A stretch of 64,000 nucleotides of DNA from the NCBI GenBank assembly GCA_964016885.1, contig OZ024742.1, forward strand, positions 364,002,001-364,066,000, in the 5' to 3' direction. The notes under the pieces are model-generated. The model was not told where the DNA came from. It did no database searches and was given only the letters and a program-made list of their open reading frames with translations. The position numbers were made by a program, and so were the translations under genes. This stretch comes from Eledone cirrhosa (taxonomy: Eukaryota). Shown here in pieces: positions 13,688-26,600 of this stretch; position 1 is the first letter of the stretch; each line of letters begins with the position of its first letter.

Positions 13688-13735
13688 AATAATAATAATA
13701 ATAATAATAATAATAATAATAATAATAATAATAAT
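13688..13735. repeat. (AAT)16 microsatellite at the 3' junction of Tx1 copy A
   Basis: Perfect AAT run. Confidence 0.95.
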
Positions 13736-13990
13736 GTTTTCTTTATTAACCACAAGGGTTTACATAAAGTAGACATTAAGGACAGTACAGGACAGTACAG
13801 GACAATACAGGACGGTACAAATGGGCATTTCTGCGTGTAAAAAAAGTAGAGGATGTAATAAAATAACAAAGAAAAAATTCCCCAATAGGGGGGAGACTTC
13901 CGAGGCACATTTGTGGAGAAAGCCCATTAAAAGACCACAGTGACCCTGACCACCAGGACAAGTGCCCTCTCCCAGTTTTCCACCTTTAAT

Positions 13991-23344: not shown

Positions 23345-25441
23345 TTACCGTACTTTTGGTAGAGGAGGGATGGTTTTTACATCCCTTTTCACTTGATCGT
23401 CTGGTGAAGGGACCGTTGAATCGTCCCTTCGGCTGGTCGTCGGCTCTTCTAAGAGAATGTCTGAATATACTCTTCGATTGATGGTTCCTCCTAGGTCCCT
23501 GAAATCACCAACTGCGTTGGGGAATTTCGTTTTAATGTTTGTGTATTGTTTCTGTGCTATTTTTAGCAGTCTTATGTTAGTTGGCGTTTTGATTGGTGCT
23601 GGTATTATGTAGTCCTGTTGTGAAATGTCTGTGTGTTCAATTATGTAAGTCATTAGTTTCTTGTTGTGTGTGTTTATTGCCGTGCATTTGTTTTTCTGGG
23701 GGTGGGGTGTGGTTCTGCTATTTTCTTGTCGTTGTTGCTGGGTGTGTGTGTTTTGTTGTTGTGTTTGCGATGTTGGTGCTTGTGGTGGTGGTGTTGAAGG
23801 TGTTGTTGGCGGTGGGGTTGTCGCCGGTGGCGATGGTGGTGCTGGTGTGGGTGGTGATGCTGTTGGTGGTGTTGCTGCTGTGGTTCTCTTTGCAGTAGAC
23901 TTTACCCTTTTCTCATTTCTTTCCTCCCTTTTCAAAGGCGACGATTCGCTGCTTCTGCGTTTGTGCCTTCTTGCGACCTTTTGCCATCCCTCTCCCACCT
24001 CACACTCCATGTCTGATTCTGTAAGGTCGGGGAGGGGTACCAGCTCCACTCTTTCACTTGTTGTTGTTGGTGATGTTTGCACTGGAGTCTCTGTTGCAGC
24101 TGCATTTGGTATTGCTGTTGTTGTTGTTAATATTTCCACTGCTGCTGCTGTCTTTGATTTCCGTGGAGTGGGTATGGGTGCCACGGACCTATCGTTCCTG
24201 GTTGCCGCTTGTCCTGTTGCTGGTAGCCGTGGAGCCGGATTCGGAAGGAGGGGGGTTTTCTCCTTTCTCAGGGTCTTCTCGTTGCAGAAGGCCCTGAGGT
24301 GAGTCTTCGATCCACAGCGAAAGCATTTCGGGCGTTTGCCCTCAACACTTATGGGCAGTTGAGTGCCGTTATCGAAGTCTATCACATCCGGGATAGCTTC
24401 GATGCACTCCTGGTTGGTTTGGATTAGCATCTCAATGGAGGAGCCGACCCAATCTTCTCTTACTTTTTTCTGTACTTGCAGTACAGTTGTTTTGTCCTCG
24501 ATTCCGACGAGGACAGACGCGGCCAGCCAAGAAGGGGTCATTCCGGGGGGGACGTGGGTCAGTTTGACCCTCACAATTTTTTGCCCGCAGTAGGAGGGCA
24601 CCAACACCATTTCCTCGCTCCTTAGGGTCACTACTGATTGGGCCTTTGCCTCCTGGGGTGTGGCAAAAAGTACGTCTACGGTGGCGTATTTTTTGCCTCG
24701 GGTGATGTGCGTTTTCCTCTGCCACACAGACCCCAAGGCTTTTTGTATTTGGGCCTCTGTGGCTCTTTCCACCCTACGGGATTTTGTACTTACTGTACGG
24801 TACGTGACCGTACAGTGCTCTTGGGTCTCGAAAAACTTTTCCGCTGCCTTGCAGATTGCTCGGTGTCCGTTCTTTGTCACCATCTTCTTCGCTTCCTCTA
24901 ATTCCTCATTTGTTATGAGGATTGTTTCCAAGTTTTTCGCAATACCTGCAAATGAGATTGGTTTTTCTCTGCTGTTGTTGTTGTCGTCAGAGCTGCTGGT
25001 ACTTTTGTTGCTGCAGGTACTACGACTACTGCCTCCGCCGCTGTTGCTGTGGTTGTTGTTGGTGTTGCTGCTGCTAATGCTGTTGTTGTTTATGCTGCTG
25101 GTGATGCTGTTGCGGCTGCTACTGTTGTTTTCATTGTCACTGTTGCTGTTGTTATTACGGCTGCTACTGCTATTATTCCTGACGTCAGACGAATGAACTG
25201 GGTTTTCGTATTTCCCGCACACCTGTTTCGTCGCTGTCGTCGTCGTCGTGGAGAAACCTTGCACGCTTTGCACGAGACTTTTCTTTTCTTTCGTCGCTTG
25301 CGAAAGAGAAGGGAGGGAGAGAGACACATTTAAAGAAGGGAGGGAGAGAGACAATCTTCTCTCTGCTGTAGTGATGATTGAGGAAGAAGAAGACGGAATG
25401 AGTGGGAGTGACGTATGAAATTTTTTTTTTTTGGTAGCCAT
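23345..25441 (-). CDS. LINE ORF1 nucleic-acid-binding protein (698 aa from first ATG)
   Basis: First ATG (MATKKKK) at 25441. Ser/Asn-rich N-terminus, SFAGIAK, CFRCGSKTHLRAFC knuckle and Pro/Thr-rich region. Lies directly upstream of ORF2. Confidence 0.9.
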   Translation of the reverse strand: MATKKKKFHTSLPLIPSSSSSIITTAERRLSLSLPSLNVSLSLPSLSQATKEKKSLVQSVQGFSTTTTTATKQVCGKYENPVHSSDVRNNSSSSRNNNSNSDNENNSSSRNSITSSINNNSISSSNTNNNHSNSGGGSSRSTCSNKSTSSSDDNNNSREKPISFAGIAKNLETILITNEELEEAKKMVTKNGHRAICKAAEKFFETQEHCTVTYRTVSTKSRRVERATEAQIQKALGSVWQRKTHITRGKKYATVDVLFATPQEAKAQSVVTLRSEEMVLVPSYCGQKIVRVKLTHVPPGMTPSWLAASVLVGIEDKTTVLQVQKKVREDWVGSSIEMLIQTNQECIEAIPDVIDFDNGTQLPISVEGKRPKCFRCGSKTHLRAFCNEKTLRKEKTPLLPNPAPRLPATGQAATRNDRSVAPIPTPRKSKTAAAVEILTTTTAIPNAAATETPVQTSPTTTSERVELVPLPDLTESDMECEVGEGWQKVARRHKRRSSESSPLKREERNEKRVKSTAKRTTAATPPTASPPTPAPPSPPATTPPPTTPSTPPPQAPTSQTQQQNTHTQQQRQENSRTTPHPQKNKCTAINTHNKKLMTYIIEHTDISQQDYIIPAPIKTPTNIRLLKIAQKQYTNIKTKFPNAVGDFRDLGGTINRRVYSDILLEEPTTSRRDDSTVPSPDDQVKRDVKTIPPLPKVR

Positions 25442-26600
25442 GTTTTTTTGTTTAAAATGAAATTTTGGGTACAAAACCCCAATAACTGATTATTTAACCC
25501 CGAAGGGCCAAATAACGGACAGAAAGACCCCTCTCACGAGGAGGAGGGTGTCTTTATCAACAATTTGGTTCAAGTTTTAAACAATTTACAATTGTTTTAA
25601 GGGTTAAAAATTACTATACCTTACAGAGCCGAGCCTCCGTCAACCATGGCATTCAATAATAATAATAATAATAATAATAATAAGGGAAGAAGACGCACGA
25701 GGTGGTTGAACGTCACGAAATTGCTCCCGTAAGTTTTTTTGATTTTTAACATATTTAAATCAATTGTGAAAGAACAATTCTTAGCACAAATGTTGCATAA
25801 AGGCACCGAATGAGGTCCCATAAAGTTTCGGATCCATATTATATTGTTGTATCGCTCAAATATTCAATTTTGTATTATATATTTTGTATTCAAAAAAAGA
25901 AAATGGATATAAATGGAACAAAACACCCTCTGTCTACACTATATAGAACAGCGGCAATTTCAATTTCACCAACACCAGAAACTTGATACACTACCTATCC
26001 CATCACACTAAATATAACGGCAACTTCACCGGCATCATAATAATAATTACTATTATTATTGTCTCAAATTTAAAAAAATGTTTAATTCAAATTTTACGGG
26101 AATATGTCAACACAAAATATAATGAAAATATATATTAAACATACGAACACAAACTCATAGATACTATATCAGTAACCACAACACCACCGCTGCCACCTCC
26201 CCACCACATCCATCATCGCCGCCACCACTCATTCAATGCTACTGACACTATTCCCCTGTTAACTTGAGAGAGAAAAGGGAAGGTGGTGGTAGCACTAGAC
26301 AAGAGAGAGGCTAGCAAAAGATATAAATAGATTGACTTGGTGACCTTGCCACGGACAAACGTCTACATCAACAATTATGGGACTGCTGGCTCACCCCTTC
26401 CTCACCAACAATATAAAAAGCCCCGGCACCACCACCGACATAGCCAGCAGCAATAACAGCCAACTACAACAAAAAGTATATTATATTATTGTAATGCACT
26501 GGGTGATTGCTGGCCTTGTGCCTGGAGTGGAGACGATTATTAATAATTTCATTTTTAAGCCACGCAATGCTCACATTAAGGTACGACTCATGATAATAAC

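What the first reader, a model, noticed from the sequence alone, without database searches (positions are those of the whole stretch)
13688..25683. Tx1-clade LINE lineage apparently homing to (TTA)n microsatellites, with an intact copy
Seen: two full-length APE-RT elements lie head-to-tail with (AAT)n at all three junctions, including the 5' side of copy B, so the repeat is not just a 3' tail. Copy B has both ORFs open. Known: the Tx1 clade includes site-specific families (Kibi at TC repeats, Koshi at TTC repeats, Keno at U2 snRNA). Inference: this is a TTA-repeat-specific Tx1 that I do not recognise as described, and it may still be active.
Basis: partly seen in the sequence, partly recalled or inferred. 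Interest (0 to 1): 0.75.

Follow-up and report, generated by a model that had tools for sequence, protein, structure and literature searches.

The report
LINE family targeting ATT microsatellites
These are two copies of a young jumping-gene family with thousands of copies in this genome (likely an octopod's) that sits in ATT repeats and duplicates short sites beginning ATTAT, likely because its enzyme cuts there; a close sister family sits in TATC repeats instead, which would allow a direct test of how such elements choose their target.

Summary
Confirmed, with corrections. Two full-length APE-RT LINEs lie head to tail on the minus strand with (AAT)n at all three junctions; copy B has both ORFs open. 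They belong to two subfamilies of a large family: 7,739 exact 3' ends, 6,751 followed by ATTATT; 2,320 of 2,403 5' ends abut (ATT)3. The better evidence: 15 of 45 truncated copies have ATT at the 5' junction (background 0.14%), and 7 of 23 informative truncated copies off the repeat show 11-18 bp target duplications, five starting ATTAT (control 2 of 506). B is not special: 14 of 54 full-length copies have both ORFs open. Dong-like LINEs share these repeats on the opposite strand; a sister family (68% ORF2 identity) ends at TATCT. Tx1 membership and absence from Repbase could not be tested; current activity is not shown. The scan already noted this family on other DNA of this genome (at least four notes). 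Verdict: new member of a known kind.

The parts
13688..13735 (.). (AAT)16 at the 3' junction of copy A; reads (ATT)n on the element strand
13736..19521 (-). Copy A: full-length, broken copy of the A-type subfamily (own 5' UTR and ORF1; ORF2 and 3' UTR 91.5% identical to B)
19522..19628 (.). (AAT)n spacer, about 36 units, between the 5' end of A and the 3' end of B
19629..25654 (-). Copy B: 6,026-bp full-length copy of the young B-type subfamily, both ORFs open
19890..23309 (-). B ORF2, 1139 aa: APE endonuclease (N10, E39, Y112, D141, N143, D202, H227 align with the human L1 motifs), RT with YADD at 685, C-terminal CX2CX8HX4C at 1002
23345..25441 (-). B ORF1, 698 aa, low-complexity arms and one CX2CX4HX4C knuckle; no Pfam family at cut-off
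25655..25683 (.). (AAT)9 at the 5' junction of B, which is also the 5' flank of the next, Dong-like element
25684..30575 (+). Dong/R4-like LINE D1 with one open 1215-aa ORF (26788-30435: RT, CCHC, RHD, PD..D motif; best solved relatives are R2 proteins), followed by (AAT)8
30602..34419 (+). Second Dong/R4-like family D2, broken by one stop, followed by (AAT)7; 5' boundary approximate
34443..36765 (+). 5'-truncated copy of D1 (96.6% identical) with AAT repeats on both sides
40003..48829 (+). Two tandem copies of sister APE-RT LINEs separated and followed by degenerate (TATC)n
57352..58967 (+). Young 5'-truncated sister copy ending in (TATC)14

Best explanation
This is a young, high-copy L1/Tx1-type LINE family that sits in (ATT)n microsatellites in one orientation, likely because its APE endonuclease nicks the AAT strand so that the duplicated site begins ATTAT. 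Shown: the flank statistics, 11-18 bp target duplications, fixed orientation, intact catalytic motifs and many near-identical open copies. Inferred: the nick falls at a T|A step (5'-ATAAT|A on the AAT strand); reverse transcription is primed there on the element's 3' end; a second nick 11-18 nt away gives the duplication; full-length RNA begins inside the upstream ATT repeat, so its cDNA anneals in register and gives the uniform 5' junction. Each insertion leaves ATT on both sides, so the site is regenerated and copies stack, together with Dong-like LINEs that enter the same repeats from the other strand.
For: 6,751 of 7,739 3' ends are followed by NN-ATTATT. 2,320 of 2,403 B-type 5' ends are preceded by (ATT)3 in one phase. 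In the first 100 3' ends of contig C1 (99 mapped): 53 of 54 full-length and 15 of 45 truncated copies have ATT at the 5' junction against 0.14% background. Off the repeat, 7 of 23 informative truncated copies have a duplication of 11-18 nt that starts at the 3' junction, against 2 of 506 mismatched pairs; five start ATTAT, one ATAAT. Neighbouring family copies face the same way in 48 of 50 flanks, Dong-like neighbours the opposite way in 65 of 67. The sister family has a similar predicted 3' hairpin but ends at TATCT in 16 of 20 copies and at ATTATT in 0 of 20, and its endonuclease is more diverged (60%) than its RT (75-76%), so the flank is family-specific. One full-length copy (L240) has (ATT)12 inside an imperfect duplication. 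R2 elements that keep upstream target sequence on their RNA have uniform 5' junctions (PMC3774820, passages).
Against: 30 of 45 truncated copies lack ATT at the 5' junction; only 6 are explained as direct joins to a Dong-like copy and a few as rearrangements. 16 of 23 informative truncated copies show no duplication. The carried 5' head rests on 1 imperfect case among 17 informative full-length copies (2 more compatible, 14 without a duplication) plus the phase argument. Junctions alone cannot separate endonuclease specificity from pairing of an ATT-ended RNA with the nicked strand. The 100-copy sample is one 55-Mb stretch of one contig and holds non-independent tandem copies (L166-168, L120-121). 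No nicking or transposition assay.
Confidence: 0.75

Rival explanations
1. RNA-pairing model: the RNA carries ATT repeats at both ends; a loosely specific endonuclease (or breaks made by Dong-like enzymes or by repeat fragility) supplies nicks, and only nicks whose end pairs with the ATT tail prime reverse transcription.
For: 3' flanks nearly always begin ATT, even off the repeat; a 5' head appears to be carried; pairing between RNA 3' end and target is named as a possible extra factor for L1 (PMC1950540, passages); Dong-like elements share the sites.
Against: Some junctions go straight from the last element base into non-ATT target with a duplication (L009; L213, L235); the endonuclease keeps all catalytic motifs and ORF2 is under purifying selection (dN/dS 0.21 between subfamilies); orientation is fixed opposite to Dong.
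Confidence: 0.13
2. The true target is the ends of other elements (Dong-like LINEs, SINEs), as Tx1L and Tx1-Mar target transposons; the ATT repeat is only what lies at those ends.
For: 67 of 198 flanks have a Dong-like neighbour, while those two families cover 3.2% of control DNA.
Against: 81 of 198 flanks match neither family; target duplications occur in unrelated sequences that share only ATTAT; neighbours vary in family and in which end is adjacent.
Confidence: 0.05
3. Passive build-up: insertion is near random and copies survive only in repeat-rich, low-cost regions, with ATT tails arising afterwards.
For: Proposed for Drosophila Waldo-A/B near CA repeats (PMC3812793, passage).
Against: Base-exact junctions in one phase and orientation, present already in copies over 99% identical; the sister family in the same window has a different repeat.
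Confidence: 0.04
4. The tandem is a local duplication or assembly artefact.
For: Some arrays repeat an irregular spacer exactly (L025/L026; L166-168).
Against: A and B have unrelated 5' thirds; no two of 14 open copies are identical (closest pair 9 differences in 6,024).
Confidence: 0.03

Closest known systems
Kibi (TC)n and Koshi (TTC)n of teleosts; crocodilian Tx1-1_Crp group on (TTCC)n/(TTTC)n (PMC4494074, passages and section 15; PMC3812793, passages)
   Same: APE-type LINEs of the L1/Tx1 group that insert into microsatellites, with sister families on different repeats.
   Different: Target here is (ATT)n with an ATTAT core; host is likely an octopod; thousands of copies, many full length. 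Direct kinship was not testable (no Kibi/Koshi sequence from the tools).
Dong, DongAg, DongBg (TAA repeats; PMC3812793 passage; R4/Dong grouping as in PMC3774820 passages; restriction-like endonuclease of R4 as in PMC4640811 passages)
   Same: Same microsatellite target.
   Different: Different enzyme class and one ORF; in this genome Dong-like elements use the opposite strand of the same repeats (65 of 67 neighbours).
Tx1L of Xenopus (PMC4494074, PMC1950540, passages)
   Same: Two ORFs, APE endonuclease shown there to nick almost only its target site.
   Different: Tx1L targets a DNA transposon; no such assay exists for this family.
R2 elements with upstream 28S sequence on their RNA (PMC3774820, passages)
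   Same: Uniform 5' junctions explained by target sequence carried on the RNA.
   Different: R2 uses an HDV-like ribozyme and an rDNA target; Rfam found no credible match in 13000-37500.
Octopus vulgaris L1-Tx1 and Dong-R4 families (PMC13282606, passages)
   Same: 13 recently active L1-Tx1 families (421 insertions) and 5 Dong-R4 families are tabulated, so young families of both kinds are known in an octopus.
   Different: The word 'target' does not occur in that text; whether this family is among the 13 was not checked.
SaTar MULE arrays of guayule and rice (PMC5907723, abstract)
   Same: Non-nested arrays of unrelated elements built by microsatellite targeting.
   Different: Those are non-autonomous DNA transposons.

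Membership tests
L1 group of non-LTR retrotransposons | ORF2 with N-terminal APE endonuclease, RT and C-terminal Cys/His motif; closest solved relative is L1 ORF2p | tested here: met
   Pfam Exo_endo_phos, RVT_1, zf-RVT; human L1 ORF2p E 2e-52 against R2 2e-21
Tx1 clade | RT groups with Tx1L, Kibi, Koshi, Keno in a phylogeny | not testable with these tools
   No labelled Tx1 sequence was returned. The tree groups B with the TATC sister, an Argonauta hians protein and P0001 (100/100) but carries no clade labels.
Tx1 clade | ORF1 of RRM/CCHC type rather than Transposase_22 (PMC5203782, passage) | tested here: inconclusive
   One CX2CX4HX4C knuckle at aa 373, no Transposase_22 hit, but no RRM hit either and no homologues found
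Target-specific Tx1 families (criterion of PMC4494074) | One sequence type in more than 20% of flanks | tested here: met
   87% of 3' flanks, 96.5% of full-length 5' flanks, 33% of truncated 5' flanks
Target-specific Tx1 families (criterion of PMC4494074) | Endonuclease nicks the target specifically | not testable with these tools
   Needs a nicking assay
Kibi / Koshi | Target (TC)n or (TTC)n | tested here: not met
   3' flanks are ATT-based; (TTC)n lay at only 2 to 3 of 45 truncated 5' junctions
Dong (R4 clade) | Single ORF with C-terminal restriction-like endonuclease | tested here: not met
   Copies A and B have two ORFs and an APE domain; the neighbour at 26788-30435 does show the restriction-like motifs
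Currently active LINE | Expression, insertion polymorphism or new insertions | tested here: inconclusive
   14 of 54 full-length copies have both ORFs open, 97.9-99.5% identical to B, none identical to another; no empty allele or RNA was examined successfully

The most novel reading that the evidence does not exclude
An octopod radiation of Tx1-like LINEs has switched between microsatellite targets (ATT against TATC) through changes in the endonuclease, and the ATT family carries its own target repeat on its RNA, so that each full-length insertion at a mere ATTAT pentamer plants a new (ATT)n landing pad, which both it and unrelated Dong-like LINEs (from the other strand) then colonise: a self-seeding target shared by two enzyme classes that shapes several percent of a 3-Gb genome.
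Probability: 0.3. Interest if true: 0.68.

Novelty: new member of a known kind. Interest (0 to 1): 0.45.

Why it matters
Microsatellite-specific Tx1 elements are known from fish and crocodilians, but how an APE endonuclease changes target is open: loop grafts onto L1 did not transfer specificity (PMC1950540, passages). Here two young families with intact ORF2, 68% identical, sit in different repeats in one genome, a natural pair for domain swaps. It also explains how large non-nested LINE stacks form in a cephalopod-type genome, and warns that a repeat on the 5' side of full-length copies is not by itself proof of a target.

Tried and rejected
Sequencing runs: no RNA holder listed; this says nothing on expression. 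Laying four runs on 19400-25900 gave no empty allele, start or end (X22 laid nothing; repeats were skipped). Rfam on 13000-37500: four matches far below gathering score, rejected; no ribozyme family matched. ORF1 homologue search: none at E 0.001. Cluster look-up and Atlas search with a stored homologue: no clade names. The 3' junction pattern in metagenome contigs: 0 matches. The RT tree cannot test Tx1 membership without labelled references. The first automatic duplication screen on the 100-copy sample mostly returned pure ATT runs and was discarded; the first set gave 5 of 8 against 4 of 56, of which only L126 is clean, so the claim rests on the second set. The dN/dS row for L181 started in the wrong place and was dropped. 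Rejected: local duplication as the origin of A plus B; 3' tail only; membership of Dong, Kibi or Koshi.

Full report
Observation. The window holds (AAT)n at 13688-13735, 19522-19628 and 25655-25683. Between them lie copy A (13736-19521) and copy B (19629-25654), both on the minus strand and head to tail. B has an open ORF1 of 698 aa with one CCHC knuckle and an open ORF2 of 1139 aa with APE endonuclease, RT (YADD) and a C-terminal zinc motif; the endonuclease motifs align with those of human L1 ORF2p, its best solved relative (E 2e-52). A is broken and is a different subfamily: 91.5% identical to B over ORF2 and the 3' UTR, 43% in ORF1 protein, no nucleotide match over the 5' 2.1 kb. The cluster does not end at 25683: three LINEs with restriction-like endonuclease motifs follow on the plus strand to 36802, separated by more (AAT)n. 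I call them Dong-like from their anatomy and TAA flanks; that label comes from no labelled sequence.

Family size and flanks. In the 3.0-Gb own genome a 25-nt motif of the 3' end occurs 7,739 times; 6,751 are followed by two bases and ATTATT. A 24-nt motif of B's 5' end occurs 2,403 times; 2,320 are preceded directly by (ATT)3. These exact-match counts are lower bounds on copy number. I fetched the first 100 of the 7,739 3' ends, all on the first 55 Mb of contig C1; 99 could be mapped. Nine bases of ATT repeat within 10 nt of the 5' junction were found in 53 of 54 full-length and 15 of 45 truncated copies, and at the 3' junction in 51 of 54 and 37 of 45; the same test is met at 545 of 398,400 control positions. 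The truncated class includes three nearly full-length copies, some rearranged ones and tandem repeats of one event (L166-168, L120-121), so it is an imperfect set.

Where it cuts. Pure repeats hide target duplications, so I listed 3' ends not followed by ATTATT (462) and fetched 60 of the first 100 listed (three were already held, two ending in AAAACA were skipped, the last 35 were not fetched). Of 37 truncated copies, 23 had an informative flank; 7 showed a duplication of 11-18 nt beginning at the 3' junction, against 2 of 506 mismatched pairs. Five begin ATTAT, one ATAAT, and the bases before them vary. L126 and L009 give two more clear cases. So the repeat or its core pre-exists and is not just a tail. 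By the standard target-primed mechanism (established knowledge) the first nick would fall on the AAT strand after ATAAT, a T|A step inside the repeat; this is inferred. Sixteen of the 23 show no duplication.

The 5' repeat of full-length copies. Duplications of 11 to 18 nt in a 3-nt repeat should end in any of three phases, yet 2,320 of 2,403 full-length junctions end in exactly ATT. One copy (L240) has (ATT)12 between an imperfect duplication of about 19 nt and its first base; two more are compatible and 14 of 17 informative copies show no duplication. I infer that full-length RNA starts in the upstream repeat and its cDNA anneals in register, as proposed for R2 elements that keep upstream 28S sequence (PMC3774820, passages).

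Stacks and shared target. Among 198 flanks, 50 had a family neighbour (48 in the same orientation) and 67 a Dong-like neighbour (65 opposite); 81 matched neither. Six truncated copies are joined directly, head to head, to a truncated Dong-like copy, which accounts for part of the 30 junctions without ATT. In 200 kb of control DNA the two Dong-like families cover 3.2% and this family 2.5%.

In-genome control. The window also holds sister LINEs on the plus strand flanked by (TATC)n (40003-48829, 57352-58967). Of 20 of the 40 best genomic matches fetched, 16 end at TATCT and none at ATTATT; six have an open ORF2, 67-69% identical to B's (endonuclease 60%, RT 75-76%). Both families end in a similar small predicted hairpin (no shuffle control). 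The flank is therefore a property of the family, not of the genome.

Age and activity. Fourteen of 54 full-length copies have both ORFs open by loose length limits (ORF1 500 aa, ORF2 1100 aa), all B-type, 97.9-99.5% identical to B, and no two identical. Scaled to 7,739 ends this would be about a thousand open copies, a rough figure from one region. dN/dS between B and an open A-type ORF2 is 0.21. B is thus an ordinary young copy; present activity is plausible but not shown.

Placement. The closest named protein is from Argonauta hians (73% over the RT region), so the host is likely an octopod. In an RT tree of 35 rows B, that protein, P0001 and the TATC sister form one clade (100/100), next to unnamed proteins at about 50%. 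No labelled Tx1 was available, so Tx1 membership is likely but untested.

Literature. Six searches found no paper describing an ATT/TAA-targeting Tx1 or such targeting in cephalopods. Read: PMC4494074 (passages, section 15; figure 3 and supplements not visible, and they list Tx1 families with known targets, so they may bear on novelty), PMC3812793, PMC4640811, PMC1950540, PMC13282606, PMC5203782, PMC3774820 (passages each), PMC5907723 (abstract). Kojima and Fujiwara 2004 was seen only as cited; Repbase and Dfam could not be searched. Known microsatellite targets of Tx1 in these texts are TC, TTC, TTCC and TTTC; TAA is the target of Dong.

Earlier notes. The scan recorded the same family, the shared target and the TATC sister on other DNA of this genome. 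I had reached that reading before the look-up; one note on the TATC family had already suggested that its RNA starts inside the repeat, which parallels my reading of L240.

Verdict. Real and well supported as an (ATT)n-preferring L1/Tx1-type family; a new member of a known kind, interest 0.45. The most novel reading not excluded, a self-seeding target shared by two enzyme classes with a target switch between sisters, has probability 0.3.

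Noticed in passing
window 25684-36802 (+): Three Dong/R4-like LINEs of two families continue the stack on the opposite strand; D1 has an intact 1215-aa ORF, and its truncated copy at 34443 has AAT repeats on both sides.
   Followed up: partly
window 40003-48829 and 57352-58967 (+); L271-L290: Sister LINE families flanked by (TATC)n; 16 of 20 genomic copies end at TATCT; six have an open ORF2.
   Followed up: partly
L099, L131, L153, L169, L176, L180 (and L002): Truncated family copies joined directly head to head to truncated Dong-like copies with no repeat between; either deletion at insertion, later deletion, or joining of two cDNAs primed from both ends of one break.
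   Followed up: partly
flanks of L125, L126, L128, L129, L216, L225, L256, L260: An abundant short element, SINE-like, lies in the same orientation in the same ATT runs, with ATT at both ends; possibly mobilised by this family.
   Followed up: no
L114, L116, L139, L105, L165: (TTC)n runs at some junctions or fused to the ATT run, hinting at another repeat-targeting family or compound microsatellites.
   Followed up: no
window about 57000-57350: AT-rich stretch that looks like a mitochondrial gene fragment (from recall, untested) directly upstream of the truncated sister copy.
   Followed up: no
window 1-4309: 51-bp minisatellite, about 85 copies, 91% matched, giving a 1161-codon open frame on the minus strand.
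   Followed up: no
window 19400-25900, run X8: A run under a different organism label laid 53,728 contigs on 29 of 30 bins at 90-99% likeness, so a close, high-copy relative exists beyond this genome's label; whether by descent or transfer is open.
   Followed up: partly
L025, L026 (C1 441.10-441.13 Mb): Two tandem junctions 24 kb apart share an identical irregular 51-nt spacer, suggesting some arrays also grow by local duplication.
   Followed up: no
window 13736-19521 versus 19629-25654: A-type and B-type subfamilies share ORF2 but have unrelated 5' UTRs and 43% identical ORF1, yet both abut (ATT)n exactly: a 5' module swap without change of target.
   Followed up: partly
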